From a virus, in IMG/VR virus record IMGVR_UViG_3300045988_179251, positions 1 through 42,146 of that record: a stretch of DNA of 42,146 bases; one strand, written 5' to 3'. The notes beneath the pieces are model-generated. The model saw only the letters and a program-made list of their open reading frames with translations. It did not search any database and was not told the DNA's origin. The translations under genes were made by a program, and so were the position numbers. Below, piece by piece: positions 4,531-41,847 of the stretch (position 1 is the stretch's first letter; the number at the start of each line of letters is the position of its first letter).

Positions 4531-4587
4531 AAAATGGTTCACGCCAAGACAAACACGAAAAACGGTTTGATTGGCGTGAACCATTTT
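4531..4587 (+). promoter_or_regulatory. Perfect 17-bp hairpin in the gap between the chaperone and tape measure genes
   Basis: AAAATGGTTCACGCCAA (4531-4547) pairs with TTGGCGTGAACCATTTT (4571-4587). The loop is 23 nt. Confidence 0.6.
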
Positions 4588-15160: not shown

Positions 15161-15176
15161 TGTTTCACGTGAAACA
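15161..15176. repeat. Perfect 16-bp palindrome TGTTTCACGTGAAACA (copy 1 of 3)
   Basis: Exact self-complementary 16-mer one base after the stop codon of 14164-15159. Identical copies lie at 22319-22334 and 22343-22358. Confidence 0.95.
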
Positions 15177-15177
15177 T

Positions 15178-15219
15178 CCCCCCTCACCGCAGAAATCGTG
15201 GTGAGGGGGGATGTTTTCG
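15178..15219. terminator. Bidirectional rho-independent terminator between convergent modules
   Basis: CCCCCCTCACC (15178-15188) pairs with GGTGAGGGGGG (15200-15210). It is followed by ATGTTTTCG on + and by the T-rich palindrome on -. Confidence 0.75.
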
Positions 15220-21543: not shown

Positions 21544-21590
21544 ATAACATTCCCCGCCTAACAACGATAACGTTAGGCGGGGAATGTTAT
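21544..21590. promoter_or_regulatory. Perfect 19-bp hairpin between lysis-cassette genes
   Basis: ATAACATTCCCCGCCTAAC (21544-21562) pairs with GTTAGGCGGGGAATGTTAT (21572-21590). The loop is 9 nt and there is no clear U-tract on +. Confidence 0.6.
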
Positions 21591-23905: not shown

Positions 23906-23923
23906 CTTTCTTCTCCTATTGGT

Positions 23924-23963
23924 TGAATAGCGGGGACAACGCGATTGTTGCCCCCGCTATTCA
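23924..23963 (-). promoter_or_regulatory. 17-bp intercistronic hairpin (fully paired only as minus-strand RNA)
   Basis: TGAATAGCGGGGACAAC pairs with GTTGCCCCCGCTATTCA. The single A-C mismatch on + becomes a G-U pair on the transcribed - strand. Confidence 0.6.
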
Positions 23964-23982
23964 AATCATGCGACCGGGTATG

Positions 23983-26760: not shown

Positions 26761-27050
26761 TCCCCCGTCGCAATGAGCTCATAAATGTCGAGATTGTTAT
26801 TGGTGGCCATGCCGCGCACAATATTAATGTTGTCCGCCGTAACATGAATGACGTTAATGTCTGAGTGTCCATCGTCCACTGGGGCGACGATCAGGAAATT
26901 CCTGCCGGCCAATTCGCTGTCGTCGGATACGAGAATGTTCCGAATGGTGCCTGTCATGCGGCGTCGCACTAGATGAATGTTAGAGCTGATGAGTGTTTCT
27001 GTCTTCATGGCATCTACCGTACGTGCGTGGTGGTGGCGTACGCAACCCAT
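26757..27050 (-). CDS. Hypothetical protein (alternative start at 27008)
   Basis: 97-aa ORF downstream of the helicase gene. No motif recognised. Confidence 0.5.
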   Translation of the reverse strand: MGCVRHHHARTVDAMKTETLISSNIHLVRRRMTGTIRNILVSDDSELAGRNFLIVAPVDDGHSDINVIHVTADNINIVRGMATNNNLDIYELIATGE

Positions 27051-27073
27051 GCGGGCATGACGTCCATCACACC

Positions 27074-28468
27074 TTATATGAGGCCGCTCTCACGCAGACG
27101 CTCATACCCCGCCTCCAGCCTGGGCTCCACAGCCGTCACGTCAACAGTGCCCTCGCACTGCAAAAGAAAACGATTCACTCTCTTTGTTTGCCCCTTGCGA
27201 TTCAAGCGGGCAGACGCCTGCAAATTCAAAATCACACTATTATCCTCACTCAACCAAACCTCAGTATTGCAAACATTCTGCAGACCGTCAATCCCTTCGG
27301 CGGCAGCCGCAATAACGGAGCAGAGAATCCGCGGCCCATCGGGCTCCAAAAATCGTCGCCACTCACCCCGGTAAGCACTGGACAACTCGACGCTCTGATA
27401 GCCGGCATCAGCCAATCGTTTCCGCAACGGCGTCATGAATTTACGCGAATGGCACCACAGAATAACTTTCTCGTCTGGCGGTAGATCGGACAGAATATCG
27501 AGGGTGGCGTCAATCTTCGAGGATCCCCACTCCTCGAACTCCACATTATCGACCACGATCCTCAAGGGTCCGAGAGTGATCTGCCTGAGCCTTCCGTCGA
27601 GAACGGCGGCGGACGATGCCACGCTGGCCCCACCATCCATAACCGCCAAACGATGATCCACAAACTCCCGATACATCCTCTTCTGTTCACGACGCATCCC
27701 ACAAACGACACGTTGAACATTTACGGGAGGTAGATCACCGAAAACCTCACTCCCACGCATCGCAGACCAAATATCACCCACGGAATCACGGAGAGCGCCA
27801 GGATCCTTCTCGCCACCATAAATCCTGGCATACCGAGACGCTGCAAAAGGATTAAACTGAGAAACAAAAAACTCATCCGCAAACCGGTAGAAACTACGAT
27901 CAACACTCCCCGGGTTCAGAAACTTGAGTACCCCGTAAATATTGACGGGTTTATTGCCGGCAGGCGTGCCCGACAAACCAAGACGATACTTCGACTTCAA
28001 CGCCTTCACGGCCCGGAAAGACTGGGTTCTATGATTCGCGATACGATGAACCTCATCCACGACCACCATATCGAACAATTTCTTCGAGAAAGAAACGAAC
28101 GGCCACTTATCCGCTTCTACCGCCTTTCCCAGGGAAACGAGCAGCTCGAAATTAATAACCCACCAACCGCCCTCGCCGGCCAGCATGCCCTCAATGTTGC
28201 CGCGACCGGCCTTGGTAGTGCGAGACAGCACTTTCGCTTCCTGACCGGTGATGGTCTTAATACTGGCCTGCCATGACGGTATGACACGCTTCGGGCACAC
28301 AATGATGACTCGCCTGTCGGCGTCGAGTTTCTGTGCGACCCAGATTGCGCCGTATGTTTTGCCGCAGCCGGGCTCCCAAGCAAGCAATGCGCCACCGCCA
28401 TCTCGAATCGCGGTGACGGTACGGTTGATTTCTCTTTCCTGCGCCCCTGTGGGCTTAATGTTAATCAT
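27074..28468 (-). CDS. SNF2-family (DEAD/H-like) helicase
   Basis: Motif I is EPGCGKT, motif II is VVVDEVHRI, motif III is LSGTP and motif VI is LQASARLNRKGQ. 464 aa. Confidence 0.85.
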   Translation of the reverse strand: MINIKPTGAQEREINRTVTAIRDGGGALLAWEPGCGKTYGAIWVAQKLDADRRVIIVCPKRVIPSWQASIKTITGQEAKVLSRTTKAGRGNIEGMLAGEGGWWVINFELLVSLGKAVEADKWPFVSFSKKLFDMVVVDEVHRIANHRTQSFRAVKALKSKYRLGLSGTPAGNKPVNIYGVLKFLNPGSVDRSFYRFADEFFVSQFNPFAASRYARIYGGEKDPGALRDSVGDIWSAMRGSEVFGDLPPVNVQRVVCGMRREQKRMYREFVDHRLAVMDGGASVASSAAVLDGRLRQITLGPLRIVVDNVEFEEWGSSKIDATLDILSDLPPDEKVILWCHSRKFMTPLRKRLADAGYQSVELSSAYRGEWRRFLEPDGPRILCSVIAAAAEGIDGLQNVCNTEVWLSEDNSVILNLQASARLNRKGQTKRVNRFLLQCEGTVDVTAVEPRLEAGYERLRESGLI

Positions 28469-28553
28469 TGAAATTCGTCCAAACGATCACTAGTAGGCAA
28501 ATGGCGAGCAAGAACACTAGTAGTGTCACTTGTTTTCTCCTCTTTTCCGTATG

Positions 28554-28591
28554 ACGAACCCCGCCCCACAGGGTAATGGGACGGGGTTCGT
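28554..28591 (-). promoter_or_regulatory. 15-bp intercistronic hairpin (G-U pair only on the minus-strand RNA)
   Basis: ACGAACCCCGCCCCA pairs with TGGGACGGGGTTCGT. The C-A mismatch on + is a G-U pair on -. Downstream direct repeats CACTAGTAG lie at 28488-28496 and 28515-28523. Confidence 0.6.
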
Positions 28592-28600
28592 TCTGTCGGG

Positions 28601-28813
28601 TCAGTGGGTGATGGCGTGACGCTGCACAGCGTCCCAGTAGGCGTCCTCGTCAACGTCCACCACATAGTAGGGAGTGCCAGTAGCGGAGAAATACTGTCCG
28701 ATCACGTCATCGGCGATGTCAGCAACATCGTAGTCATCCACATTGTCCAGGGTAGGAATGATGTCGAACTCGACGACGTCGTTCCGAGTGCTGCGACGAG
28801 TGGTGATGTTCAT
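28601..28813 (-). CDS. Small highly acidic hypothetical protein
   Basis: The ATG at 28813 is preceded by GAGAAGAGAGAGAATC. The protein is 70 aa and rich in Asp (DNVDDYDVADIADDV...VVDVDEDAY). Confidence 0.5.
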   Translation of the reverse strand: MNITTRRSTRNDVVEFDIIPTLDNVDDYDVADIADDVIGQYFSATGTPYYVVDVDEDAYWDAVQRHAITH

Positions 28814-28914
28814 GATTCTCTCTCTTCTCTCCGTACTGTCACCGTCTCTCGGTGACGACCCTAGTATAGGCAGGCCATACACACCATCGTCAACCCGACG
28901 GGAGGTGACTCCGC

Positions 28915-32669: not shown

Positions 32670-33161
32670 TTAAATGTCGGAGCCGATCACCTCCTCCACA
32701 GGCACGCCCACCAAATCACACAGATCAGCCAGACTGTCTCTGGCGTCAGACTGAGCGCACTCCCACACTGGCGAACCTTTCCTACTGTCCCTCATTTCTT
32801 CCAGGCAAAGAATGAAATCGTACGCCAGACGGGCACTCTCCATCTTCACCTCGTGCCGCTTAATGTGCTTGTGAATCCATCTAGCCGCAACAGCCGTGTT
32901 CTCACCCTTGGTGGCAATCTTTCTCCACCACGCATCCACTGCCGTGTTTTTCGGGCTGAAATACCATGTCGTCGGCCTACCGTCGTCGAAAACATACGTC
33001 TCGACAGTGCCGCTCTTAGTATCCCAAATAATGGCGGTGAAACCATCACTATCGTGATAGTAGGAAGTGGCAGACGGCATATTCTCCCGAATAAGCCCCA
33101 TCTCAACGTCCCGGTCAGTTACCCCCTCAATGTTGGGGTCGTCACATTCAAACCATAGCAT
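32670..33161 (-). CDS. Hypothetical early protein
   Basis: 163-aa ORF preceded by AGGAAGAGAGAGAGGAAGAGAATA-ATG. Confidence 0.6.
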   Translation of the reverse strand: MLWFECDDPNIEGVTDRDVEMGLIRENMPSATSYYHDSDGFTAIIWDTKSGTVETYVFDDGRPTTWYFSPKNTAVDAWWRKIATKGENTAVAARWIHKHIKRHEVKMESARLAYDFILCLEEMRDSRKGSPVWECAQSDARDSLADLCDLVGVPVEEVIGSDI

Positions 33162-33199
33162 TATTCTCTTCCTCTCTCTCTTCCTGGAATTGCGGCTGG

Positions 33200-34114
33200 T
33201 CAGACGATCACACTGTCAGGAATCTCCCGGATCCGAGCGCAGAACTGCCCCCACACCTCCTCCACGGCATCCGACCGGTCAAGAGAATACAACCTACCGG
33301 GGGAAAACTCTGCACCACCCCCGTTCGCGCTCACAACAATCTGCCCAATAATCTCACCATTGAAATAGGCGACAATCAAAGAATCCTCCGCCATAGCGAG
33401 AGTGATACCACAAGCGTCCGCCACCGAAACGAGACCATCCATGACCGAGGCGCCCACAACAAGACGGTCAAACATTTCCTGCACCTTATCCGCAAGGTTC
33501 TCAGTACAAGTCACACTAACATTGGTCACCCAGCCGAGAGTTTCAATATTGTCCACGGTCAACGCGACCTCACCGGAAACGAACATCATCTCACCAATCG
33601 GCTTCGTGTAAATGTGGAACCTTGAAGAATGCGTGAGCTGCCTCGCCGGCCTCCACGAGACAGCAGCTTCAATGGGAGTGCGGGAATGCTCAACGACAGG
33701 ATCATGGGAGAGAGCGTCCACAAAGTGGTCCCAGATGAGGCACTTCGACACGTCCTCACCCGAAAACTTGCCAACGCCCAGCTCGACGCCGCTTCGCCTC
33801 ATACCAACCATCATGGTGCCAATCGTCGACCCGCCGGACGACACTGTCAGAGTCGAAAACTCGTCCCCGTCGATATAGAGGCCGTGCTCATCGGCCAGGG
33901 TAAGAATGCGATCGTAAATTTTCGCCATACACACCATGGAAGCCAGCGCCTCATTAGCGGAACAACGGTCGTCCGGAAATTCGGAGAGGTAGACGGGCAC
34001 AAGGCGGTCGGACAAAAGAATGTCCTCCCTGTCCATGATCTGCGTTGTGCCGTCCAACCAAATACCACGCGACCAATTCGTAACGTCAATGGTGAAATGC
34101 GCGTCATAAAACAT
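33200..34114 (-). CDS. Hypothetical early protein with an apparent internal duplication
   Basis: The ATG at 34114 is preceded by AGGAAGAGATACATA. Two roughly 90-aa halves share a pattern (see findings). Confidence 0.6.
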   Translation of the reverse strand: MFYDAHFTIDVTNWSRGIWLDGTTQIMDREDILLSDRLVPVYLSEFPDDRCSANEALASMVCMAKIYDRILTLADEHGLYIDGDEFSTLTVSSGGSTIGTMMVGMRRSGVELGVGKFSGEDVSKCLIWDHFVDALSHDPVVEHSRTPIEAAVSWRPARQLTHSSRFHIYTKPIGEMMFVSGEVALTVDNIETLGWVTNVSVTCTENLADKVQEMFDRLVVGASVMDGLVSVADACGITLAMAEDSLIVAYFNGEIIGQIVVSANGGGAEFSPGRLYSLDRSDAVEEVWGQFCARIREIPDSVIV

Positions 34115-34158
34115 TATGTATCTCTTCCTGATACTCGTGTTGCCAGAATTGCGGGGGG

Positions 34159-34341
34159 TTACCGGACTCCTATCGCCCCCCACAGGACCCAGATAGCCGC
34201 CACGACACCGAGCGTCCCGATCACGGCGAAGCATGATGCGGTCAGGTAGATGATGGCGGCCAGGATGATTTCGCTGCTCCGTCTCAACGGGCGGCGGGTC
34301 GCGGCGTTGGTGCGCCTTGGTGCCGCATGCCTCATGCTCAT
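34159..34341 (-). CDS. Small membrane protein (first gene of the leftward arm)
   Basis: The ATG at 34341 is preceded by AGAGAAGGAACC. The protein is 60 aa with a basic N-terminus and a long hydrophobic segment (IILAAIIYLTASCFAVIGTLGVVAAIWVLWGAI). Confidence 0.5.
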   Translation of the reverse strand: MSMRHAAPRRTNAATRRPLRRSSEIILAAIIYLTASCFAVIGTLGVVAAIWVLWGAIGVR

Positions 34342-35121
34342 GGTTCCTTCTCTTTCTTCGTGGTGGTCTTGGTTGTGGTGCGGGGCTGCTGTCTTGCTCC
34401 CGATAGCCTTAACTCTAGGGGCCCGACGCTCGCCCGTCCACCCCACCTCGGTGAGACGTCCGCCACACTGTGGGGTTTGGTTTCCGACGTCGTCGGCCCA
34501 CCGCCCCAGAGCGCCATGAAAGGCGGACGGGTGATGGGGCGCATGCGGCCACGTCCGCCGTCCCGCGCGATCACGAGACGAAAGACGCAATGCCGGCCCA
34601 GCTCAGTCAAACCTTTCAGATTGGGTGGGCTGGTATGTCATTGCCGTCCTCTGTCACATCGCCTCACATGACGTTAATACCATTCTCTTCCAGTACACCC
34701 CCGATCTCCTCAACTGTCCCGAGGACGACGAGGCCCCACCTTCGACGACGAGGGCGGGGCCTCAGTGCGTCTACTGCGGAAGGGCGGTGTGTGATGGGGG
34801 CATGTGGTGCCGGCCACCAGGGTACTGATCTTTCACAGTTTCTGTTAACCTCCCGTTCATCTTGTTCACTTCCCGTTTACTTTCCCACACAAGTGGGTTG
34901 TTTGCTAGCAACCGGGGTTCTAGGGTGAAAACACCCGTTTGTGTTACTACAATATAGGTGCGTGTTGTCACAGTTTCTGTTCATGTGGCAAGGGATCGTG
35001 TCAGGGTGTTCCTTGTGATTGCAGCGTTTAGTCCCTGTTGCGGTTGTTTTGTTGGCAGTGTTTGTTGCGGTGACTTTAGTCCCGTATGCTACACTCGAGT
35101 AGACGAATCGTCGAAGACGAT

Positions 35122-35186
35122 CTGCGGCGCAGCCGCTGAGGAGCCCTAGCGACGCAAGCGAGCGTCAGCGCCGCAGGGTGTTTTCG
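35122..35186 (+). terminator. Terminator-like branched stem-loop with a U-tract
   Basis: CTGCGGCGC (35122-35130) pairs with GCGCCGCAG (35168-35176). An inner helix is GACGC/GCGTC. The element is followed by GGTGTTTTCG. Confidence 0.4.
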
Positions 35187-35215
35187 AAGAGCTCGCCACT
35201 GTGTTGGGCCCAACC

Positions 35216-35290
35216 TATACTCTTAAAAGAGTACTAGAATTAGACACTGTCTAACGCAACTAGACGGTGTCTAATTATGGAACACGTGTT
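35216..35290. promoter_or_regulatory. Cluster of operator-like palindromes in an AT-rich patch
   Basis: TATACT at 35216-35221. TACTCTT-AA-AAGAGTA at 35218-35233. TTAGACA-C-TGTCTAA at 35240-35254. CTAGACGGTGTCTAA at 35260-35274. AACACGTGTT at 35281-35290. Confidence 0.45.
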
Positions 35291-35401
35291 ATAACGTAAT
35301 TAATGTTCGATGGTGAACATGGTGATCGTTAACAGTGAACAGTGTGTTTGTGGTAGAAGTAACACACGCCGCATTAGGTGGACGCGCACACGAACACAGT
35401 A

Positions 35402-35461
35402 GGCGGCTGTCGTGCTACGTGCGTGCTCGCAGGGCTGCGCGCGCACTACACGACACCCGCC
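35402..35461 (+). promoter_or_regulatory. Conserved nested hairpin, copy A (followed by a polypurine tract 35467-35530)
   Basis: The outer stem is GGCGGCTGTCGTG/CACGACACCCGCC. The inner stem is GTGCGTGC/GCGCGCAC around the loop TCGCAGGGCT. The core is shared with copy B. Confidence 0.55.
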
Positions 35462-35633
35462 ATACCAGAACAAAGAAAGAAAGGAAGGAAGAAAAGCGGA
35501 AGAGGAAGGAAAAGAGGAAGAAGAACAAGGAGTAGTGTTAGACGGTGGAGGCGCTCGTCTCGCTGACGCTGCGACGCGCCACCACCTAACACCAACAAGA
35601 AAGACGAGAAGAAGAGAGCAGCAGTGAGCAGCA

Positions 35634-35978
35634 GTGAGCAGAACAAGCACACGCGAACACAAACAATTCAGAAAACAAGTACTCGCCAGAGCACAAGCCA
35701 TGGGCATCACACACTGCCCAGCATGCGGAGTAAAACTCCAATACAACAATGATGGACAACGCAAACTCAACAGTGCCGAGGCAGACCACATAATCCCAGC
35801 ATCACTAGGCGGAACCAACCACCCAGACAACGGCAGAGTATTATGCGCCAAATGCAACAGCAGACGAGGCAACGGACGAGGAGGCAAAGGCAGAGCACGC
35901 CACTACCAAAAAAACAAGGAGGAAAGAGACAGGCTACCCATCGCAGTCATGCCCACACGACACAGTGACACATGGTAG
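35634..35978 (+). CDS. HNH endonuclease (packaging-associated type)
   Basis: CPACG ... ADHIIPASLGGTNHPDNGRVLCAKCNSRRGN is a clear HNH motif with a zinc-binding CxxC pair. It lies upstream of the terminase. The GTG start is uncertain. Confidence 0.8.
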   Translation: MSRTSTREHKQFRKQVLARAQAMGITHCPACGVKLQYNNDGQRKLNSAEADHIIPASLGGTNHPDNGRVLCAKCNSRRGNGRGGKGRARHYQKNKEERDRLPIAVMPTRHSDTW

Positions 35979-36069
35979 ACACACACCACAGCCATTCCAA
36001 CAAAGAGAAAGGCGGGGAATAGAACAGAACAAAAGAGAAGACAAGACAAAGCAACAAGAAGAACAGGAT

Positions 36070-36126
36070 GGTGTTCGGGGATAACGTGCGTGCTCGCAGA
36101 GCTGCGCGCGCACTACCCCGAACACC
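36070..36126 (+). promoter_or_regulatory. Conserved nested hairpin, copy B (followed by a polypurine tract 36131-36175)
   Basis: The outer stem is GGTGTTCGGGG/CCCCGAACACC. The inner stem and loop are the same as copy A (loop TCGCAGAGCT). Confidence 0.55.
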
Positions 36127-37271
36127 AATAACAAGAAAGGAAGAGGAAGAGGAAGACGGAGAAGACAAGCAACGAGACCATCACACCCGTCGCACCACCG
36201 CCATTCCACAACAACACAACCCTGCCGCATTAACGCAACCCCAAACCAACAATGCTATGACAACAAACACAAAGAAGAGAGAGAAAAAAGAGAAACAAAC
36301 CACAATTCCACACACCACGACAACACACCCCCACCGCCCTTCTACAACACAACACCACACGTCACACCATAAGACAATGCGCACACCACAGTAAACAACA
36401 CGCACTGAAACACACGGCACACAATAGCGGTAGGCCGACAACAAACACCACCACCATCCACCCCCCACACGAACACTGCAACACACAAGACAGGAAAAGA
36501 GCAAGACAACACAAGAGGAACAAGACAATACGAAGGGGAAGCGGGACAACACGAGGTGCCGGCCCCGTTCCGAAACACCGGGCATCACAGCACACACCAC
36601 ACCCCGCCATCCAACGGGCCCACCACGCGAACGGAATGGGGACGCCAACATTCGAAAGGGGGACGCCAACACACGGACGGGGATACCAGTAACACAGCCG
36701 CCCTCCCATCACCATGCCACCCACCATCCGCCATGCCACCCCACCACCCACGACGGCCCCACCCACCACCACGACAAGGGGGGGGGCGATCGGAGGATAC
36801 CCCACCACACGAAGACCACGGACAGACACGCACCCGCACACCGCATCACCCGGCAACGAACAGCATACGACACGATCGCAGTACTGATGAGTACTGCACT
36901 GGGATGGGCGGGGCACGGGCCGGGCTGCACGCACTGGGCGGACAGCAGCAGCACACCCACCGCCATTCCACAACAGCACACCGATGAGAGATGGACACCA
37001 TCCGCTGTCCCACCTCGCACTGATCGCGTTCACACAACCAACGAACAACAATGATCAACAATGACCAACAATCAATGTTCAATGATTGAACAACAATCAA
37101 TGAACGATGAACATGATGATGATCAATCATCATCATGATGAACACAATGAACATGATGATGAACACATGATGATGATGTGATGCATGACATGCATACCAA
37201 TACCATGCACCATGCATGGTGCCAACGCATGCCGCAAAGGCAACACAACGCACAAACGCACAAATGCATAA

Positions 37272-37303
37272 AAATGTTATAAAACAAAAGAAATGTTATA
37301 AAA
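37272..37303. repeat. Two AT-rich 13-mers AAATGTTATAAAA (37272-37284 and 37291-37303)
   Basis: Exact direct repeat inside the most AT-rich stretch of the window (about 37255-37330). Confidence 0.6.
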
Positions 37304-37549
37304 ACATGCAAAAAAATTCAAAGGCACGAACCAAACAACGGCGTTCAAAAAACCATGGCAACATTTCGAGGCGAACACAAAGGGGGCCCCAACACCATAA
37401 GGGATCCCTTAAACGTGGGACCCACATCACAAAACAAGGCGGAGACCAGACAAAACGAGACGCACACCACACAATTCATGTGATGGGGGCCACTCCCCCT
37501 CCCCCATCCGGCCGCGAACACCCCGAAGGTCTGCCCATCTCTCCCTGCT

Positions 37550-37688
37550 TGTGGAAAACCCTGTGGATAACTCCAGTAACCCAGACCACAATGTGACCAT
37601 CATCATGTGGAAAGCTCCCAAACCTGTGGAAAACCCTGTGGAAAACTCTCCAGGTTGTGGACAACCCTGTGGAAAACCTTGTGGACAA
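37550..37688 (-). promoter_or_regulatory. Array of eight DnaA-box-like 9-mers, all in one orientation (candidate origin, DnaA-titration site or terminase recognition repeats)
   Basis: + strand TGTGGAAAA at 37550, 37625, 37637 and 37668. TGTGGATAA at 37562. TGTGGAAAG at 37606. TGTGGACAA at 37656 and 37680. Reverse complements are TTTTCCACA, TTATCCACA, CTTTCCACA and TTGTCCACA. Confidence 0.6.
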
Positions 37689-37730
37689 CCTCACCAGACG
37701 TGACCGACACCACCGCATATAATAGAAAAC

Positions 37731-38012
37731 ATGACAACCCACACAAACACCACAATCACTGTATACGAACCAAACAGCCCCACCCCCATAACCGACGCCA
37801 CAAACACAAACAACCCCACACTCATACGCCAAGCACTTGCACACAAAATCGCCACCGTCATAGACGACCCAAGAACAGGCGACACAGCACTCACAAAACT
37901 CACAGCACAACTCATACAAATCACAGACCAACTAGCCACCACACAAAACGAAAACACACACCCGGACACCACCGACATTCCAAACGAAACACAAACCTGG
38001 GACGGCATCTAA
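37731..38012 (+). CDS. Hypothetical protein in the small-terminase position
   Basis: 93-aa ORF ending 3 nt before terL. The central part (LIRQALAHKIATVIDDPRTGDTALTKLTAQLIQITDQL) looks helical and protein-like. There is no clear Shine-Dalgarno and the region is compositionally biased. Confidence 0.35.
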   Translation: MTTHTNTTITVYEPNSPTPITDATNTNNPTLIRQALAHKIATVIDDPRTGDTALTKLTAQLIQITDQLATTQNENTHPDTTDIPNETQTWDGI

Positions 38013-38015
38013 ACA

Positions 38016-39509
38016 ATGAGCGAAAAACACCTATCCGAAATCGCCGCCCACCTCACCCTCCCAGAAAACATCACACACACCGCCTGGCCGCCAGTCAAAC
38101 ACCGCCTCCAAGAAATGCAATACCCCCTCGACGTCTGGCAACAAGACTGGCTCAAAGCAATCCTCGCCAAAAGAAACGACGGCCACTACGCAGCCAGCAT
38201 CGACGGAATCCAAGCATCCATCCCCCGCCAGGTCGGCAAAACATACACAATCGGCGGCCTCGCATTCGCACTCGCCACCCTCCACCCAAACTACTTCATC
38301 CTTTGGACCGCACACCGCACACGCACCGCAGACGAAACATTCAACGACATGAAAGGCATGGCACAAATACCCAACATCGCCCCATACGTAAACAAAATAC
38401 GGCAAGCAAACGGACAGCAAGCCATCCTCTTCAACAACGGATCACGCATTCTCTTCGGCGCCCGCGAAGGAGGATTCGGACGCGGATTCCACGGCGTCGA
38501 CATGATCCTTTTCGACGAAGCCCAGATCCTGGGCGCCGCCGCACTAGACGACATGATCCCCGCCACAAACACGGCGCCAGACCCGCTCATCATCAAAATC
38601 GGGACACCACCAAAACCAAAAGACCCGTCCGAAGCTTTCAGCGAATTCCGCAACCTCGCTTTGCAAGGCGAAATAAAAGACGGCCTCTACCTCGAACTAG
38701 CCGCCGACTACAACGCTAACAGCGACGACAGAAAACAATGGGAAAAAGCCAACCCATCATACCCTCGCCGCACACCCGAATCCGCCATTCTAAGAATGCG
38801 CAGACAACTCGGAGAAGAATCATTCCGACGTGAAGGCCTCGGAATCTGGGACCGCGCCAACGACAGACTCGCAATCGACCCAGTCGCCTGGAACACCGCC
38901 ACAATACGCCCAGAAAACACCCCCAGCGGCATGCGATGGTGCGCCGCAATCCGATTCGCACCCGACGGATCAACATGCGCCCTAGCCAGAGCAGGACACA
39001 AAGCCAACACGCCCACACACGTCGAACTATGCACCCACCAAGGCGTCCGCCGCATGAATGAAGGCACGCAATGGATCATCGACTACATTGCGGACACAAA
39101 AGACAGATGGGCACAAATCATCGTAGACGGAAAATACGGTGCCGGAGACACAATCGAAAGACTGAGAGCCATCGGAGTACGCCCCCAAGTCATCATCACC
39201 CCCACGATCACGCAAATCATAGACGCTTACAGCATGCTAGACGCCTCGTTGCGCGAAAAAACGATCACACACCTAGACGATATGGAATTGCGGACTGAGG
39301 CCGCGTCGGCGACGCCGCGCCCAATCGGAACATCAGGTGGGTGGGCGCTACAAGCCCCGCCAGGCGCCACCGTAGCCGGCCTAGAAGCCTGCACGCTCGC
39401 AATGTGGGCCGCGCGCACAACAAAAAGAAGGCCACGTTACAAACCTTATGATAAAATCGAAAACGCCAATAGTAACACTGATCGTGGCGGCGGAGTACTG
39501 TTCCTATGA
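38016..39509 (+). CDS. terL: Terminase large subunit
   Basis: 497 aa. The Walker A-like motif is IPRQVGKTYT and Walker B is MILFDEAQIL. It is followed by a nuclease-domain-sized C-terminus and directly precedes the portal gene. Confidence 0.9.
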   Translation: MSEKHLSEIAAHLTLPENITHTAWPPVKHRLQEMQYPLDVWQQDWLKAILAKRNDGHYAASIDGIQASIPRQVGKTYTIGGLAFALATLHPNYFILWTAHRTRTADETFNDMKGMAQIPNIAPYVNKIRQANGQQAILFNNGSRILFGAREGGFGRGFHGVDMILFDEAQILGAAALDDMIPATNTAPDPLIIKIGTPPKPKDPSEAFSEFRNLALQGEIKDGLYLELAADYNANSDDRKQWEKANPSYPRRTPESAILRMRRQLGEESFRREGLGIWDRANDRLAIDPVAWNTATIRPENTPSGMRWCAAIRFAPDGSTCALARAGHKANTPTHVELCTHQGVRRMNEGTQWIIDYIADTKDRWAQIIVDGKYGAGDTIERLRAIGVRPQVIITPTITQIIDAYSMLDASLREKTITHLDDMELRTEAASATPRPIGTSGGWALQAPPGATVAGLEACTLAMWAARTTKRRPRYKPYDKIENANSNTDRGGGVLFL

Positions 39510-41113
39510 CTGAAATTTATCCTGACGACGGACGGCTCGTTAATGCTACGCCGGCACCCACACGCATTTCCGGACTCCCCGACGAATACAAGGTAACATT
39601 CCTGCAACTATGGCAGAAATGGCAGCAGCACTCAAACAAAAACAAGCTGCTCTCCGTCTACTACGACGGCCACCGCGCTTTCCAGGACCTTGGTATCAGT
39701 ATTCCGCCGCAAATGACACGCACCAAAGCCGCACTCGGATGGCCTCAGAAAGTCGTCACCATGCTCGCCAGGAGGCACGTATTCGAGGGCTACTCCCTGA
39801 ACGGCGCCCCCGACGCTTTCGAAGCAAACGAAATACTATCCGCCAACAACTACGACCTCGATCTCGCCCAAGCGATCACTTCAGCGTACAAGCATTCTTT
39901 CTCGCTGCTCACCGTGACGCGGGGGGACGAGACTATTGGTGAGCCGCCTGTCGTCGTGCAGGCCCGTGACGCAGAATGGTCTGCCGCACTATGGGACACG
40001 CGCCGCCGCATAATCGAGGCCGCCCTCACAATTGATCAGACCGACAAATACGGGCAGCCGGCAGGCGCCATCATGCACACCCCCACCGCCATTTGGCGAA
40101 TCGACGCCAAAGAGAACGGCGGCGGATGGAAAGCCGAAAAACTCGGAGACACACCAAACCGCATTTTCGTCGAAGCGCTCTGCTACGACCCGCAACTGAA
40201 CCGGCCGTTGGGACATTCACGAATCACCCGCGAAGTAAGATATCTCACGGACGCGGCAGTGAGGACAATGGTCCGCGCGGAAACGTCCGCCGAATTCTTC
40301 TCCTCACCGCAGCGATATGTGCTCGGCGCAGAAAGAGCAGACTTCGCCGGCCAGGACAGGTGGTCCGCAATCATGGCCCGAGTACAGGTTCTCGAGCCGA
40401 ACGAGAACGGTGACATTCCCAGTGTGGGGCAATTCTCACAAATGACCATGGGTCCCCACTTGGAAATGTACCGTCAGCTGGCGCAGAATTTGTGTGCAGC
40501 CACAAACCTTCCTCAATCCGCTATCGGGGTATTCGCGGAGAACCCCACCTCGGCTGAGGCGATGCAGGCGGCTGAGGCGTCGCTCGCGGACGAAGCCGAG
40601 TATCAGTGGCGTATTTTCACCGCCCCGCTGCGGCGCACTCTGCAGAACGTTATTATGGTCCGGGACAAGCTTGACGAGCCGCCCGCCGAGTCGTGGAAGA
40701 CGTCCGTGAAGTGGACCCCCGCCCGCTATTCCTCACCGTCGTCTGCCGCTGATTTCGCGGTCAAAATGGTGTCTGCTTTCCCGTCGCTGCAGGAGTCGCA
40801 GACTCTCATGCGGCGTGCCGGACTCACCGAGGACGATCTCGCAGATATCAACGCTGAAAATCGCAAAAAGAATGCAATATCGTTGCTGGACCGTGCTCTC
40901 GCTGCCACGAATAACGGGGGCGCCGTGGATGAGAATGACGAGAACGGTGACGCAGCCAACAATAATGGTGACGATAATGTTGACAACGCCAGCAACAATA
41001 ACGACAACAGCGGCAACAGCAATAACCTGAACCTCAATAACGCGCCCAATACAAGGAACAGGATTAAGCGCAACATTAAACTGCCCGGCGGAACCAAAAC
41101 ACCAATAAACTAA
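39506..41113 (+). CDS. Portal protein with an Asn/Asp-rich C-terminal extension
   Basis: 535 aa with an ATGA overlap to terL. Position and size fit an SPP1-type portal. The last roughly 70 aa are low-complexity N/D-rich. Confidence 0.85.
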   Translation: MTEIYPDDGRLVNATPAPTRISGLPDEYKVTFLQLWQKWQQHSNKNKLLSVYYDGHRAFQDLGISIPPQMTRTKAALGWPQKVVTMLARRHVFEGYSLNGAPDAFEANEILSANNYDLDLAQAITSAYKHSFSLLTVTRGDETIGEPPVVVQARDAEWSAALWDTRRRIIEAALTIDQTDKYGQPAGAIMHTPTAIWRIDAKENGGGWKAEKLGDTPNRIFVEALCYDPQLNRPLGHSRITREVRYLTDAAVRTMVRAETSAEFFSSPQRYVLGAERADFAGQDRWSAIMARVQVLEPNENGDIPSVGQFSQMTMGPHLEMYRQLAQNLCAATNLPQSAIGVFAENPTSAEAMQAAEASLADEAEYQWRIFTAPLRRTLQNVIMVRDKLDEPPAESWKTSVKWTPARYSSPSSAADFAVKMVSAFPSLQESQTLMRRAGLTEDDLADINAENRKKNAISLLDRALAATNNGGAVDENDENGDAANNNGDDNVDNASNNNDNSGNSNNLNLNNAPNTRNRIKRNIKLPGGTKTPIN

Positions 41114-41121
41114 CACTTATC

Positions 41122-41847
41122 ATGCTGTCAACCGCAGAAATCGGGGCGTACGGGCGAGCAATAGACTCACTCACCACACTCGCCCAAAACGATTTACACA
41201 CACTCTGGTCGCACGCTGCTAGACAGCGCCCCGAACAGGCACGCGATCTTCTACTCGAAATCATGCCCGCCCTCGTCGACCAATACGGCAGTGCGGCCGC
41301 CGCAATCGCCGACGAATGGTACCGCGACATGCGCCTAGACCAGGACATTCCCGGCGACGCACCCACAGTACAAACATCGCTCACACCACAAGGTGAAATA
41401 GACGACAGCGTAAGATTCAGTGCAGGCGCACTATACGCCGGAACCCCTGACATTGCCCTATCCTATTTGACCGGGGCGCTCATCCGATACGTCAGCGACG
41501 GCGCCCGCTCACAAATCGCAGACATGACATGGGCCGACCCAGAAGCAATGGGCTGGGAAAGACGGACACGCAATCCACAAGCATGCAATTTCTGCGTCAT
41601 GCTCACAATGAACGAATGCTACTACCGCAGCCAGGGCACCGCATCATTCGGGGCGCACGATAACTGTAAATGTGTTGCGGTCCCCGCATGGGACCCGACC
41701 TCCCGGGAAGTGCCGGCAAAAGCATACGCGCTCGCAGCCAGACACAAAACCGAAAAGGGTCGCACGCGCCATCGCGAGCTCGTTTCATCGTGGATAGACA
41801 CGCACCAGGAAGAGCTTGCAGAATGGCGTACCCGGCCAATTGAATGA
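41122..41847 (+). CDS. MuF-like head morphogenesis (minor capsid) protein
   Basis: C-terminal CNFCVML...FGAHDNCKCVAVP is the CxxC...HxxCxC pattern of Mu F / SPP1 gp7-like proteins. It follows the portal gene. Confidence 0.7.
   Translation: MLSTAEIGAYGRAIDSLTTLAQNDLHTLWSHAARQRPEQARDLLLEIMPALVDQYGSAAAAIADEWYRDMRLDQDIPGDAPTVQTSLTPQGEIDDSVRFSAGALYAGTPDIALSYLTGALIRYVSDGARSQIADMTWADPEAMGWERRTRNPQACNFCVMLTMNECYYRSQGTASFGAHDNCKCVAVPAWDPTSREVPAKAYALAARHKTEKGRTRHRELVSSWIDTHQEELAEWRTRPIE

What the first reader, a model, noticed from the sequence alone, without database searches (positions are those of the whole stretch)
34342..38015. 3.7-kb gene-poor region with an almost T-free + strand between the divergent early and packaging arms
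Elsewhere in this genome neighbouring genes mostly overlap by 1-13 nt. Here about 3.7 kb holds one convincing CDS (HNH, 35634-35978) and one weak one (37731-38012). From about 35340 to 37730 the + strand is nearly devoid of T, with long A/C and A/G runs. The long track ORFs on both strands (for example 36181-36672 -, 36362-37051 - and 37607-38719 +) are therefore low-complexity artefacts of stop-codon starvation. The region is densely structured: covarying hairpins, polypurine tracts, palindromes, direct repeats, a G9 run and a DnaA-box array, each reported separately. Its position predicts cos/pac, an origin and early/late promoters, but the size and composition exceed what those normally need. 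A long G/U-rich leftward RNA or a new cis-acting element is possible.
Basis: partly seen in the sequence, partly recalled or inferred. Interest (0 to 1): 0.75.

Follow-up and report, generated by a model that had tools for sequence, protein, structure and literature searches.

The report
Phage genome-end control region, T-poor spacer
This stretch is the non-coding end region of an uncultured but very common human-associated phage: it holds the DNA-packaging cut site and its control elements, and its odd T-poor make-up is one part of a larger one-strand composition bias that also shapes the silent sites of neighbouring genes and has no known cause.

Summary
T is 8.0% over 35400-37000 and 10.9% over 35340-37730, against 23% elsewhere. 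It is near normal at 37000-37700.

The interval between HNH and the 93-aa ORF is non-coding. That ORF is a real gene, a small-terminase candidate.

The physical genome end (cos) lies at 37531/37532. Nine or more independent metagenome contigs start exactly there, one directly after an Illumina adapter. The flanks are homologous to the ends of Rothia phage Spartoi and Propionibacterium phages G4 and PA6.

The "DnaA-box array" begins with a TGTGG motif that sits 19 nt from the left end in PA6 too, so it is more likely the terminase-binding cosB.

About 0.7 kb of the spacer evolves at or above the neutral rate with many indels, yet stays A/C-rich in all 23 relatives.

The T-poverty is not special to the non-coding DNA. 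Fourfold-degenerate sites of genes on both strands from about 27 to 39.3 kb share it. HNH, terS and 5' terL reach 85-98% A+C.

Polymorphism data reject a stationary mutation bias, so selection or disequilibrium is at work. The cause is unresolved.

The closest precedent is the right-end non-coding region of C. acnes phages. I found no support for a long G/U-rich leftward RNA.

The parts
34159..34341 (-). First gene of the leftward arm. Probably a 60-aa membrane protein; the 143-aa ORF 34159-34590 is an over-extension. It sets the left border of the gene-poor region.
   Evidence: Relative L008 has only the 60-aa ORF (4759-4941), with the same sequence. blastn conservation is 76-84% over 34001-34600.
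34342..34717 (.). DNA upstream of the leftward arm. At 34714/34718 the relatives carry 1.3-2 kb of extra DNA with 2-3 ORFs that this genome lacks.
   Evidence: There are breaks in the blastn alignments at 34714 and 34718 in 15 or more loci. ORFs of the insert in L008 are listed.
34925..34953 (+). Promoter-like site GTGAAA-17-TACAAT. It is conserved in relatives and is followed by a G/T-rich stretch.
   Evidence: Found by the consensus scan. Conserved columns are shown. Function is inferred only.
35085..35240 (+). Ultra-conserved block, almost invariant in 19 genomes and more conserved than the coding genes. Positions 35092-35192 fold into a three-way structure with G-U pairs on the + strand. 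It is a candidate small RNA, leader or protein-binding element.
   Evidence: Alignment. Folding gives -45.6 kcal/mol with z -3.2 on the + strand, against -40.6 with z -2.2 on the - strand. Rfam gives no hit. An exact-pattern scan finds it only in this clade.
35193..35273 (+). Promoter-like site TCGCCA-17-TATACT (-10 at 35216-35221). It is overlapped by the perfect palindrome TACTCTTAAAAGAGTA (35218-35233). Two operator-like palindromes, TTAGACAnTGTCTAA, follow at 35240-35254 and 35261-35273. This is the probable start of the rightward HNH transcription unit and its control sites.
   Evidence: inverted repeat I3; conservation; sequence. Function is inferred.
35399..35466 (+). Hairpin 1, about 25-28 bp. 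Its 33-nt core is identical to that of hairpin 2. The outer stem differs between relatives but stays paired.
   Evidence: D7; compensatory pairs; invariant U-G wobble. One search gives -32 to -45 kcal/mol in 39 distinct copies.
35464..35542 (+). Polypurine tract 1. It contains the longest T-free run of the genome, 35464-35532.
   Evidence: (D1).
35535..35592 (+). Hairpin 3 (GTGTTAG...CTAACAC), invariant in relatives, in the HNH 5' untranslated region.
   Evidence: Sequence; conservation.
35634..35978 (+). HNH endonuclease gene of the packaging-associated type. At fourfold sites it has A .57, C .41, G .02, T .00.
   Evidence: Pfam HNH_5 at 2e-10. 88-96% identical in relatives. 3-periodic substitutions. 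Composition. HNH is the last gene before cos in Spartoi, MrSmee, G4, PA6, L104 and L106.
36066..36133 (+). Hairpin 2, 88 nt after the HNH stop. Probably the 3' end or processing signal of the HNH transcript.
   Evidence: Pairwise divergence is 0.053, against 0.30-0.40 for its flanks.
36134..36743 (.). Fast-evolving A/C-rich core of the spacer: A .385, C .362, G .187, T .066. It includes polypurine tract 2 (36130-36180) and a hypervariable indel block (36294-36533). Sequence is unconstrained; composition is kept.
   Evidence: Pairwise divergence is 0.30-0.40 with 19-62% gaps, against 0.24 at terL fourfold sites. T is 9-13% over the HNH-terS intergenic interval in all 23 relatives. The + sense RNA folds at -3 to -15 kcal/mol per 150 nt, with C minus G of +24 to +32% at 36175-36474.
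36198..36212 (+). CCGCCATTCCACAAC motif. A second exact copy lies at 36960-36974 and degenerate copies at 35457, 36334 and 36728. Its complement contains TGTGGAA, the iteron core in the opposite orientation.
   Evidence: 10 matches against 1.84 expected; 5 of them here, all on the + strand. The copy at 36960 is conserved.
36739..36786 (.). G-quadruplex motif on the - strand (36739-36764) and a G9 run on the + strand (36778-36786). This is a somewhat conserved segment.
   Evidence: Identity is 0.87 over 36744-36773.
37040..37320 (.). AT-richer conserved block. It holds ATGA/TCAT repeats (37040-37163), five CATGCA motifs (37180-37232) and an invariant A-tract block (37280-37313). It is a candidate cos-accessory (bending or termination) site or an unwinding element.
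   Evidence: (D2, D5, D10). Divergence is 0.096 over 37164-37320. GC is 36-46% per 100 nt.
37398..37508 (.). Conserved palindromes left of the cut: TAAGGGATCCCTTA (37398-37411) and GATGGGGG-11 nt-CCCCCATC (37482-37508).
   Evidence: A homologous GGGGG..CCCCC element sits left of cos in Spartoi, G4, L104 and L106.
37504..37546 (.). cos cleavage zone. The top-strand cut falls between 37531 and 37532, so the left end of the virion DNA is 5'-TGCCCATCTCTCCC.
   Evidence: At least nine contigs from several metagenomes start at TGCCCATC. L023 has the adapter tail ...GCTCTTCCGATCT fused to it. Right-end contig termini fall at 37504-37527. The flanks are homologous to the deposited ends of Spartoi, G4 and PA6. 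The overhang is not resolved.
37550..37689 (+). Array of 12-nt iterons, CCTGTGGA(A/T/C)AAC: 7 exact copies plus TGTGGAAAGC at 37606. All point the same way and copy number varies between relatives. Probably cosB, the terminase small-subunit sites. Each is also a formal DnaA-box match.
   Evidence: 7 against 0.34 expected. (first three sites invariant; 0-6 extra copies in an indel block). TGTGG lies at +19 from the left end here and in PA6, and TCCACA lies at +22/23 in Spartoi and G4.
37718..37723 (+). Conserved TATAAT ending 7 nt before the ATG of terS, with variable flanks and no Shine-Dalgarno sequence. Probably a promoter for a leaderless terS-terL mRNA.
   Evidence: 23 of 24 sequences have TATAAT and one has TACAAT. 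Function is inferred from what is known of leaderless mRNAs in Actinobacteria.
37731..38012 (+). 93-aa gene, terminase small-subunit candidate. At fourfold sites A+C is 0.94.
38016..39275 (+). 5' 1.26 kb of terL, still inside the A/C domain. A+C at third positions is 0.76-0.94 in all 58 sequences, then drops abruptly to about 0.6 inside the gene.

Best explanation
The interval is the terminal control region of a cos-packaging siphovirus-like phage. The phage is probably of Actinomyces/Schaalia-type hosts and is uncultured but very common.

From left to right the region holds:
- a divergent regulatory zone with promoter- and operator-like sites and an ultra-conserved structured element (34342-35400);
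- the packaging-associated HNH gene, bracketed by two near-identical RNA hairpins;
- a spacer of about 1.1 kb, of which about 0.7 kb has no sequence constraint;
- about 0.45 kb of conserved cos-proximal protein-binding DNA;
- the cos cut at 37531/37532;
- a cosB-like array of TGTGGAAAAC repeats;
- a leaderless-type promoter and terS.

The T-poverty is not a device of the spacer. It is what little-constrained DNA looks like inside a strand-specific composition domain in which the + strand is A/C-rich. This domain runs from about 27 kb across cos to about 39.3 kb and rules synonymous sites of genes on both strands.

Shown: non-coding status, the cos position, conservation pattern, extent of the domain, and its departure from mutational equilibrium.

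Inferred: the roles of the hairpins (ends or processing of the HNH mRNA), of the iterons (terminase binding) and of TATAAT (late promoter).

Unknown: the force that makes the domain. My best guess is a DNA-strand-level process of the kind proposed as replication-linked for C. acnes phages, possibly reinforced by selection for an unstructured rightward RNA.
For: Non-coding status and gene calls:
- Non-coding status rests.
- terS is real.

cos:
- Contig starts, the adapter junction and right-end termini place it.
- The flanks are homologous to deposited phage ends.
- HNH lies next to cos in six relatives, with only about 50-160 bp between them.

Spacer:
- Spacer segments diverge by 0.30-0.40 with many gaps, against 0.24 at neutral sites. 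The cos-proximal block diverges by 0.05-0.13.
- Composition is kept in all 23 relatives.

Domain, in + strand terms at fourfold sites:
- HNH has A .57, C .41, G .02, T .00.
- 37.5-39 kb has A .39, C .53, G .04, T .04.
- Leftward genes at 27-34.5 kb have T .04-.11 and A .28-.31.
- Control genes have T .16-.31.
- The boundary lies inside terL at about 39275 in all 58 genomes.

Not a stationary mutation bias:
- In HNH, terS and terL, rare variants run 44 into G/T against 2 out.
- In terS and terL, the G and T alleles are below 10% at 20 sites each and above 90% at 1 site each.
- 42 A/C transversion polymorphisms have a flat frequency spectrum, against 7-9 in control genes.

Precedent:
- C. acnes phages have a non-coding region of more than 1 kb near the right end, with a transcription-independent skew switch (PMC3448167).
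- PA6 fourfold sites are about 90% G/T on the + strand in both gene orientations, flipping to A/C at HNH.
Against: - No transcript, terminus or replication data exist for this phage. Every functional role is inferred.
- The cohesive-end overhang is not resolved.
- The domain has abrupt edges and patches (for example 41076-41600 is A/C-rich and 40400-41000 is not). These fit neither a smooth replication gradient nor a single transcription unit and could reflect mosaic ancestry.
- The sign of the skew is opposite to the bacterial leading-strand rule if an origin lay in the region.
- Unlike PA6, the skew does not flip at cos.
- If composition itself is selected, 'passive spacer' is the wrong description.
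- The polymorphism tests treat linked sites as independent and treat metagenome contigs as a population sample.
Confidence: 0.6

Rival explanations
1. Composition is the function. The rightward transcript (HNH, spacer, and in circular or concatemeric DNA on across cos into terS-terL) is selected to be G/U-poor. This makes it almost free of secondary structure and C-rich. In the untranslated spacer such RNA would act as a long Rho-loading (rut-like) insulator that stops read-through into cos. In terS and terL it would favour translation of a leaderless, CA-rich mRNA.
For: - The + sense RNA folds at -3 to -15 kcal/mol per 150 nt at 36175-36550 and at about -10 in terS, against roughly -30 to -77 in the ordinary DNA at 34300-35350. 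C minus G is +24 to +32%.
- Sequence is unconstrained but composition is kept, which is the pattern expected of rut sites (established knowledge).
- G depletion is confined to the rightward unit from about 35400 to 39275.
- Polymorphism data point to selection against G and T.
- terS looks leaderless and starts ATGACAACCCACACAAACACC. CA-rich downstream regions are reported to enhance leaderless translation (my own recollection of Martin-Farmer and Janssen 1999).
Against: - T depletion extends 7 kb into leftward genes, whose mRNA is then A-poor and U-rich, so one RNA-level rule does not cover the whole domain.
- The domain ends inside terL rather than at a gene or operon end.
- terS has its own promoter.
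- A/C-rich patches recur further right.
- No transcription or Rho data exist.
Confidence: 0.2
2. The region, or part of it, is the replication origin. Either host DnaA or a phage initiator binds the TTWTNCACA-type boxes beside the AT-richer block, or initiation occurs in the divergent zone where GC skew switches, as proposed for C. acnes phages. Polypurine tracts and G-runs could support R-loop priming.
For: - Seven perfect DnaA-box matches, including TTGTCCACA and TTATCCACA on the complement.
- An AT-richer repeat block lies about 230-490 bp away.
- GC skew at fourfold sites changes from about 0 to -0.9 across 34342-35400.
- The same argument was made for C. acnes phages.
- Polypurine or polypyrimidine tracts are shared with the PA6 non-coding region.
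- There is a G9 run and there are G-quadruplex motifs.
Against: - The first iteron sits at the same distance from the cut (+19) as TGTGG in PA6. The motif sits at +22/23, inverted, in Spartoi and G4, phages of different host genera. This fits a packaging site.
- cos separates the boxes from the AT-rich block.
- The AT skew does not switch in the region; it runs straight through.
- The polarity of the GC switch is terminus-like by the bacterial rule.
- No initiator gene lies next to it. The primase and helicase genes are at 27-31 kb.
Confidence: 0.2
3. A long non-coding, G/U-rich leftward RNA is made from the spacer. It acts as an antisense or structural RNA.
For: The - sense RNA has more predicted structure than the + sense RNA, -23 to -63 kcal/mol per 150 nt. 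The early genes are leftward.
Against: - The extra structure is what G-U pairing gives any G/U-rich sequence.
- The spacer diverges at or above the neutral rate with many indels.
- There is no covariation outside the hairpins.
- The hairpins keep a U-G wobble in the + sense in 44 of 44 copies and fold slightly better on the + strand (27 of 39).
- Rfam finds nothing.
- I found no conserved leftward promoter.
Confidence: 0.05
4. The spacer is decayed former genes, or mere stuffer DNA that keeps the genome at packaging length. Its composition is a relic of a past, now inactive, mutational regime or of mosaic acquisition from a skewed lineage.
For: - It evolves at a neutral-like rate with indels.
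- Rare variants run toward G/T, as expected for decay of a relic.
- The domain has abrupt, patchy borders suggestive of mosaicism.
- Relatives differ by 1.3-2 kb of genes nearby, while total contig length stays at about 42-43.4 kb for most near-complete contigs.
Against: - No protein remnant is detectable.
- With a mean pairwise fourfold divergence of 0.24, and 63% of terS+terL fourfold sites polymorphic, all relatives still keep the bias. G/T alleles almost never reach high frequency, while A/C transversions do.
- Short A/C-rich tracts lie between HNH and cos in PA6 and L106 too.
Confidence: 0.1

Closest known systems
[quoted passage not shown] 2012, PMC3448167)
   Same: - Same genome plan: structural genes rightward, then a leftward arm, then more than 1 kb of non-coding DNA, then a rightward HNH gene, then cos.
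- Unusual base composition and conserved low-complexity runs, with polypurine or polypyrimidine tracts in both.
- A strand skew that ignores gene orientation and switches in the non-coding DNA.
- TerL is homologous, and the cos left end shares ...CTCCCT..TTGTGG at +19.
   Different: - In PA6, HNH ends 49 bp from the genome end. Here 1.55 kb of non-coding DNA lies between HNH and cos.
- In PA6 the + strand is G/T-rich over 93% of the genome and flips both in the non-coding region and at cos. Here the A/C-rich domain is local (about 27-39.3 kb), runs straight through cos and ends inside terL.
- The GC dip below 25% seen in PA6 is absent here (minimum 36%).
- The function is unproven in both.
cos region of lambda/HK97-type phages (cosQ-cosN-cosB, small terminase sites, HNH-assisted cleavage)
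   Same: - The order is HNH gene, cut site, repeated sites, terS, terL.
- Repeats lie between the cut and terS, which starts 199 nt from the left end. Nu1 in lambda starts at about 190 nt (my own knowledge).
- Conserved palindromes flank the cut.
   Different: - There are seven to eight same-orientation 12-nt repeats that also match the DnaA-box consensus, and their number varies between strains.
- There is a kilobase-scale spacer upstream of the cut.
- Binding and cleavage are untested and the overhang is unknown.
Rho utilisation (rut) regions
   Same: The rightward RNA is C-rich, G-poor, unstructured and untranslated, with no sequence conservation but conserved composition.
   Different: Known rut sites are about 70-100 nt, not about 1 kb. 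The same composition continues into translated genes. No termination data exist.
Strand asymmetry of vertebrate mitochondrial DNA (A/C-rich L strand at fourfold sites)
   Same: Similar magnitude and direction at synonymous sites: A+C of 85-98%, with G lowest. The bias is independent of gene orientation. The mitochondrial values are my own knowledge.
   Different: The mitochondrial skew is a genome-wide gradient attributed to single-strandedness during replication. Here it is a local domain with sharp borders, and the polymorphism data reject a stationary mutational cause.
DnaA-box clusters of oriC and of plasmid or phage origins
   Same: Seven 9-mers fit TTWTNCACA or the actinobacterial TTGTCCACA, clustered within 140 nt.
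   Different: All are in one orientation with a 12-nt period. They lie between cos and terS. The first is positionally conserved with the cos ends of phages of other host genera. No adjacent unwinding element lies on the same side of cos.

Membership tests
cos (cohesive-end) packaging site | Fixed physical ends of virion DNA at this position | tested here: met
   At least 9 independent contigs start at 37532, and one is fused to an adapter. Right-end contig termini fall at 37504-37527. Fold-back chimeras occur at the end (L014, L056).
cos (cohesive-end) packaging site | Homology of the flanks to experimentally defined cos ends of related phages | tested here: met
   GAACACCCC...| and |...ATCTC(T)CCC...TGTGG/CCACA are shared with the deposited ends of Spartoi, G4 and PA6.
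cos (cohesive-end) packaging site | Single-stranded complementary overhang of defined length and polarity | tested here: inconclusive
   Contig ends are ragged on the right side. One contig has a 15-nt terminal repeat. Run-off sequencing is needed.
cos (cohesive-end) packaging site | Adjacent terS and terL genes and an HNH gene | tested here: met
cosB / small-terminase binding repeats | Repeats between the cut site and terS, conserved with the terminase lineage | tested here: met
cosB / small-terminase binding repeats | Binding by the small terminase subunit | not testable with these tools
   Needs EMSA or footprinting with the 93-aa protein.
DnaA-box origin | Cluster of 9-mers matching the DnaA-box consensus | tested here: met
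   7 exact matches, against 0.34 expected.
DnaA-box origin | Adjacent AT-rich unwinding element and a skew switch at the site | tested here: not met
   The nearest AT-richer block (37040-37320, GC 36-46%) lies across the cos cut. Neither AT nor GC skew changes sign at 37550-37690.
DnaA-box origin | Initiation of replication at the site and DnaA binding | not testable with these tools
   No replication data exist.
Pahexavirus-type right-end non-coding region (putative ori) | More than 1 kb of non-coding DNA between the leftward arm and the rightward HNH-side genes near the right end | tested here: met
   34342-35633, compared with PA6 27613-28877.
Pahexavirus-type right-end non-coding region (putative ori) | Conserved low-complexity runs | tested here: met
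   Polypurine tracts at 35464-35542 and 36130-36180. PA6 has a polypyrimidine tract.
Pahexavirus-type right-end non-coding region (putative ori) | GC skew independent of transcription that switches within the region | tested here: met
   Fourfold GC skew is -0.02 over 33001-34500 and about -0.9 in HNH. The AT skew, however, does not switch there.
Pahexavirus-type right-end non-coding region (putative ori) | Sharp drop of GC content below 25% | tested here: not met
   The lowest 100-nt GC values are 39% (35201-35300) and 36% (37101-37200).
Structured non-coding RNA (long leftward RNA) | Conserved sequence or covarying structure along the RNA, or a known family | tested here: not met
   Divergence is at or above the neutral rate. 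There is no Rfam hit at E<=1. Covariation is found only in the hairpins that flank HNH, and their wobble polarity favours the + sense.
Rho-dependent terminator (rut) zone | C-rich, G-poor, unstructured, untranslated RNA | tested here: met
   composition and folding; untranslated.
Rho-dependent terminator (rut) zone | Rho-dependent 3' ends | not testable with these tools
   Needs RNA-seq or Term-seq with and without Rho inhibition.

The most novel reading that the evidence does not exclude
A kilobase-scale composition domain, in which the sense strand is built almost only of A and C, is actively maintained by selection across the concatemer junction of a very common human-associated phage. Its 1.1-kb non-coding core would work by composition alone rather than by sequence. 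It might be a giant Rho-loading insulator or structure-free RNA, or a strand-discriminating DNA signal for replication, recombination or packaging. This would be a kind of cis element not described for phages.
Probability: 0.25. Interest if true: 0.8.

Novelty: new variant of a known kind. Interest (0 to 1): 0.6.

Why it matters
- The work fixes the genome ends, the packaging signals and the small terminase of a phage clade whose TerL cluster has 1765 members in human metagenomes. No cultured representative is known.
- It shows that an "odd non-coding region" is the visible tip of a strand-composition domain. In this domain synonymous sites are up to 98% A/C. The domain ignores gene orientation, has a border inside a gene and is not at mutational equilibrium.
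- A related but differently laid-out asymmetry exists in C. acnes phages (about 90% G/T at fourfold sites). In the one paper I read on these phages (PMC3448167) only the GC skew is mentioned.
- Finding the cause would reveal either an unrecognised replication or repair asymmetry in actinophages, or selection on nucleic-acid composition at kilobase scale.
- It also matters for gene calling, because composition-driven ORFs up to 370 aa appear here.

Tried and rejected
- **blastn of the region against 50,697 phage records:** no match.
- **Rfam at E<=1 and tRNA scan:** nothing.
- **Pfam and PHROGs on 12 ORFs from the region (8 in the spacer, 4 in the divergent zone):** nothing. Coding and relic-gene readings were dropped, also because substitutions have no codon periodicity.
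- **Generic promoter and terminator scan:** counts are no higher than in shuffles (3 against 1.9; 9 against 8.1). I kept only the sites that are also conserved.
- **Stationary mutation bias as the cause of the composition:** rejected by flux and frequency-spectrum asymmetry.
- **Introgression from one odd genome as the source of rare G/T alleles:** rejected, because carriers are spread over many genomes.
- **End-resection models (5'-3' or 3'-5' from both cos ends):** rejected by reasoning. They predict opposite skews on the two sides of cos, while the skew has one sign across it.
- **Transcription-coupled deamination:** fits the leftward genes but has the wrong sign for HNH, terS and terL.
- **Bidirectional replication from the region:** predicts a sign change that AT skew does not show.
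- **An origin-like structure at the left border of the domain (about 27050):** none seen.
- **The same skew or spacer in Spartoi, G4, L063, L104 and L106:** absent, apart from a G/T-poor HNH gene in L104 and L106.
- **The ultra-conserved 35085-35240 block outside the clade:** found only within it.
- **Literature searches for phage strand asymmetry:** gave only the C. acnes phage precedent.

Full report
**What the window is**

The 42,146-nt window is a circularly permuted, complete or near-complete phage genome with 55% GC.
- Rightward packaging and structural genes run from 37731 across the window junction to about 15.2 kb.
- A mostly leftward arm (15.2-34.3 kb) carries an SNF2 helicase, a primase-polymerase-like protein, a DUF3987 helicase, and AAA_24 and DUF669 proteins.
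- Its TerL is identical to a protein of an uncultured 'Caudoviricetes sp.' (DAU65685.1). The 90% identity cluster has 1765 members.
- IMG/VR holds more than 60 contigs with TerL 93-98% identical.
- The next TerL relatives (58-63%) are prophages of Actinomyces and Schaalia.
- The nearest cultured phages (40-49%) infect Arthrobacter, Rothia, Propionibacterium, Bifidobacterium and Mycobacterium; Cutibacterium (C. acnes) phages are also among the 1260 matching records, at under 60% identity.
- blastn finds nothing among 50,697 phage records.

**Check of the observation**

The two largest gene-free gaps of the genome lie here: 1752 nt and about 1.3 kb, against a median of 18 nt.

T content:
- T is 5-13% in every 100-nt window from 35401 to 37000.
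- It is 8.0% over 35400-37000 and 10.9% over 35340-37730.
- This is the lowest window of that size in the genome: 0.104, against 0.230 +/- 0.020 in the 2-27 kb part.

'Almost T-free' is too strong. T is 16-24% at 37001-37300 and 18-19% at 37501-37700, and the left third of the interval is T-rich.

The long ORFs are artefacts:
- Among 23 aligned relatives, substitutions fall evenly on the three codon positions all through 35979-37730. In HNH and the 93-aa ORF the third position takes 59-67%.
- None of the ORFs matches Pfam or PHROGs.

The 93-aa ORF is not weak. It is 90-97% identical in relatives, has 3-periodic substitutions and matches PHROG 1459, terminase small subunit.

**The genome end**

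- At least nine contigs from different samples begin exactly at TGCCCATC (window 37532).
- In L023 this is preceded by the Illumina adapter tail GCTCTTCCGATCT, so an adapter was ligated to a DNA end there.
- L014 and L056 carry fold-back chimeras at the same place.
- Contigs that reach the other end stop at 37504-37527.
- The flanks are homologous to deposited phage ends. Spartoi ends ...GAACACCCCCCGGCGAT and starts AGCGATATATTCACCGGTTTTTTCCACA. G4 starts AGCGATATCTCCCCGGGTTTTTCCACA. PA6 starts ...CCTCCCTTTTGTGG.

The top-strand cut is therefore between 37531 and 37532. The overhang could not be resolved.

**Anatomy, left to right**

1. *First leftward gene.* It is probably a 60-aa membrane protein at 34159-34341. 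At 34714/34718 the relatives carry 1.3-2 kb with 2-3 extra ORFs.
2. *Divergent zone, 34718-35400.* It holds two conserved promoter-like sites (-10 at 34948-34953 and 35216-35221).
   - It also holds a 16-bp perfect palindrome over the second -10 and two TTAGACAnTGTCTAA palindromes.
   - A block at 35085-35240 is almost invariant in 19 genomes. It folds best on the + strand (-45.6 kcal/mol, z -3.2).
3. *HNH and its hairpins.* HNH (35634-35978) is bracketed by two hairpins of 25-28 bp (35399-35466 and 36066-36133). Each is followed by a polypurine tract.
   - The 33-nt core is the same in both and in all relatives.
   - The outer stem of copy 1 changes sequence but stays paired.
   - A U-G wobble in the + sense is invariant in 44 of 44 copies.
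4. *Spacer.* Segments 35979-36065 and 36134-36743 diverge by 0.30-0.40 between relatives, with 15-62% gaps.
   - This is at or above the 0.24 seen at terL fourfold sites.
   - Hairpin 2 diverges by only 0.053.
5. *cos-proximal DNA.* From 37164 to 37646 the DNA is constrained (divergence 0.05-0.13). It holds CATGCA repeats, an invariant A-tract block, the palindromes TAAGGGATCCCTTA and GATGGGGG..CCCCCATC, and the cut.
6. *Iterons.* Seven exact TGTGGAHAAC repeats, all on the + strand, lie at 37550-37689. The expected number is 0.34 and there are none elsewhere in the genome. Copy number varies between relatives.
7. *terS promoter.* A TATAAT, conserved in 23 of 24 genomes amid variable flanks, ends 7 nt before the terS ATG, with no Shine-Dalgarno sequence. 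In Actinobacteria this is the signature of a leaderless mRNA. That is established knowledge, and its application here is an inference.

**The iterons are more likely packaging sites than DnaA boxes**

Each repeat fits the DnaA-box consensus on the complementary strand. However, the first TGTGG lies 19 nt from the left end both here and in PA6. The same motif, inverted, lies at +22/23 in Spartoi and G4. A motif that keeps its distance from the cut in phages of four host genera, and sits between the cut and terS as cosB does in lambda, fits terminase recognition better than host DnaA. Binding is untested.

**The spacer is peculiar to this clade**

- In Spartoi, MrSmee, G4 and PA6 the HNH gene ends about 50-160 bp from the deposited genome end. 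In L104 and L106 the whole HNH-terS gap is only about 200 bp. Here the HNH-to-cos distance is 1553 bp.
- Short A/C-rich tracts fill that gap in PA6 and L106. The spacer therefore looks like an expansion of a pre-existing A/C-rich tract plus a duplicated hairpin-polypurine module.

**The T-poverty belongs to a larger domain**

Fourfold-degenerate sites, expressed on the + strand:
- HNH has A .57, C .41, G .02, T .00.
- 37.5-39 kb (terS and 5' terL) has A .39, C .53, G .04, T .04.
- The leftward genes from 27 to 34.5 kb have T .04-.11 and A .28-.31, with G not depleted.
- Genes elsewhere have T .16-.31.

The bias thus ignores gene orientation and is stronger at silent sites of the flanking genes than in the spacer (A .36, C .32, G .21, T .11). 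The spacer's remaining G and T sit largely in its conserved elements.

Borders:
- The right border is abrupt. A+C at third positions is 0.76-0.94 up to 39275 and about 0.6 after it, inside terL, in all 58 genomes.
- An A/C-rich patch recurs at 41.08-41.6 kb.
- The left border is near 27.05-27.2 kb, with no origin-like structure there.

Spartoi, G4 and L063 lack such a domain. L104 and L106 also lack it around terS and terL, although their HNH gene is G/T-poor like the one here.

PA6 has a related but different layout. Its + strand is about 90% G/T at fourfold sites from 2 to 27.6 kb in both gene orientations, and it flips to A/C at the right-end HNH. Marinelli et al. (PMC3448167) noted the GC skew, its independence of transcription and its switch inside the right-end non-coding region of more than 1 kb. 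They proposed an origin there.

**Mutation or selection**

Under any stationary reversible process, changes into and out of a base should balance. They do not.
- At fourfold sites of HNH, terS and terL, rare variants run 44 into G/T against 2 out.
- No monomorphic G or T site exists in terS and terL.
- The G and T alleles are below 10% at 20 sites each and above 90% at one site each. Control genes give 18 against 30 for G and 62 against 20 for T.
- A-C transversion polymorphisms are the largest class (42 sites, flat spectrum), against 7-9 sites in controls.
- The rare G/T alleles are spread over many genomes.

A stationary mutation bias is therefore rejected. What remains is selection against G and T on the + strand, or a composition that is out of equilibrium. 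The second is hard to reconcile with the 0.24 pairwise silent divergence and with the spectrum of A/C changes, but it is not excluded.

Caveats: the sites are linked, and the contigs are not a random population sample. In the spacer the imbalance is milder (56 in against 29 out for T; 68 against 36 for G).

**Consequences and candidate causes**

- The rightward RNA of the domain is nearly structure-free: -3 to -15 kcal/mol per 150 nt at 36175-36550 and about -10 in terS, against roughly -30 to -77 in the ordinary DNA at 34300-35350. It is also C-rich and G-poor.
- That is the make-up of Rho-loading RNA, and of the CA-rich regions said to favour leaderless translation. It matches the 'composition kept, sequence free' evolution of the spacer.
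- But T depletion also covers 7 kb of leftward genes, so one RNA-level rule does not explain everything.
- Symmetric end resection, transcription-coupled deamination and bidirectional replication from the region each predict a sign change that is not seen.

I therefore treat the spacer as little-constrained DNA showing a regional strand bias of unknown origin. Composition-level function is the main rival.

**Verdict**

- The finding is real and is mostly explained as a cos-containing terminal control region.
- Its closest known relative is the right-end non-coding region of C. acnes phages, so it is a new variant of a known kind.
- The unusual part is not the gene-poor DNA itself. It is the selected, or non-equilibrium, strand-composition domain that crosses cos and ends inside terL.

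Noticed in passing
window 35085-35240: A block of about 150 nt is almost invariant in 19 genomes, more conserved than any neighbouring gene. It has a predicted three-way RNA structure on the + strand (-45.6 kcal/mol, z -3.2). There is no Rfam family for it and it is found only in this clade.
   Followed up: partly
window 38016-39275 versus 39276-39509 (inside terL); also 41076-41600: The A/C bias at third codon positions (0.76-0.94) stops abruptly inside terL in all 58 genomes and reappears as a patch in gene 41122-41847. This suggests mosaic ancestry or a discrete DNA-level border.
   Followed up: partly
window 38016-38285: Third-position variability in the first 270 nt of terL is 0.04-0.07, two to four times lower than in the rest of the gene. 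Some extra constraint on silent sites lies just downstream of terS.
   Followed up: no
L103 (Propionibacterium phage PA6, NC_009541.1), whole genome: Fourfold-degenerate sites are about 90% G/T on the + strand (A 1-7%) across 2-27.6 kb in both gene orientations, and flip to A/C in the right-end HNH gene. In the one paper I read on these phages (PMC3448167) I saw only the GC skew mentioned.
   Followed up: partly
window 34714/34718 versus L003, L007, L008 and others: Relatives carry 1.3-2 kb with 2-3 ORFs of unknown function (for example L008 5273-5710 on the - strand, 5907-6209 and 6328-6660 on the + strand) that this genome lacks.
   Followed up: partly
window 27050-27200: At the left border of the T-depleted domain, fourfold T on the + strand drops from .21-.32 to .04-.11. 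This falls at or within the 3' end of the SNF2 helicase gene, with no intergenic element visible.
   Followed up: partly
window 36198-36212, 36960-36974 (and degenerate copies at 35457, 36334, 36728): The motif CCGCCATTCCACAAC recurs only on the + strand left of cos. Its complement carries the iteron core TGTGGAA, so iteron-like sites face each other across the cut.
   Followed up: partly
L023 1-20; L014 1-103; L056 1-25; L114 end: Public IMG/VR contigs of this phage carry adapter remnants or fold-back chimeras at the genome end. These are useful as end markers but are errors in the records.
   Followed up: yes
window 15172-15216, 21544-21590, 23923-23964, 4531-4587: Ordinary perfect 17-19 bp hairpins lie at gene-block borders elsewhere in the genome and are likely terminators. 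The large hairpins that flank HNH are therefore a distinct class.
   Followed up: no
window 36739-36764 (- strand), 36901-36924 (+ strand), 36778-36786: Two canonical G-quadruplex motifs and a G9 run lie within 190 nt in the spacer. The genome has only one other such motif, at 31730.
   Followed up: no
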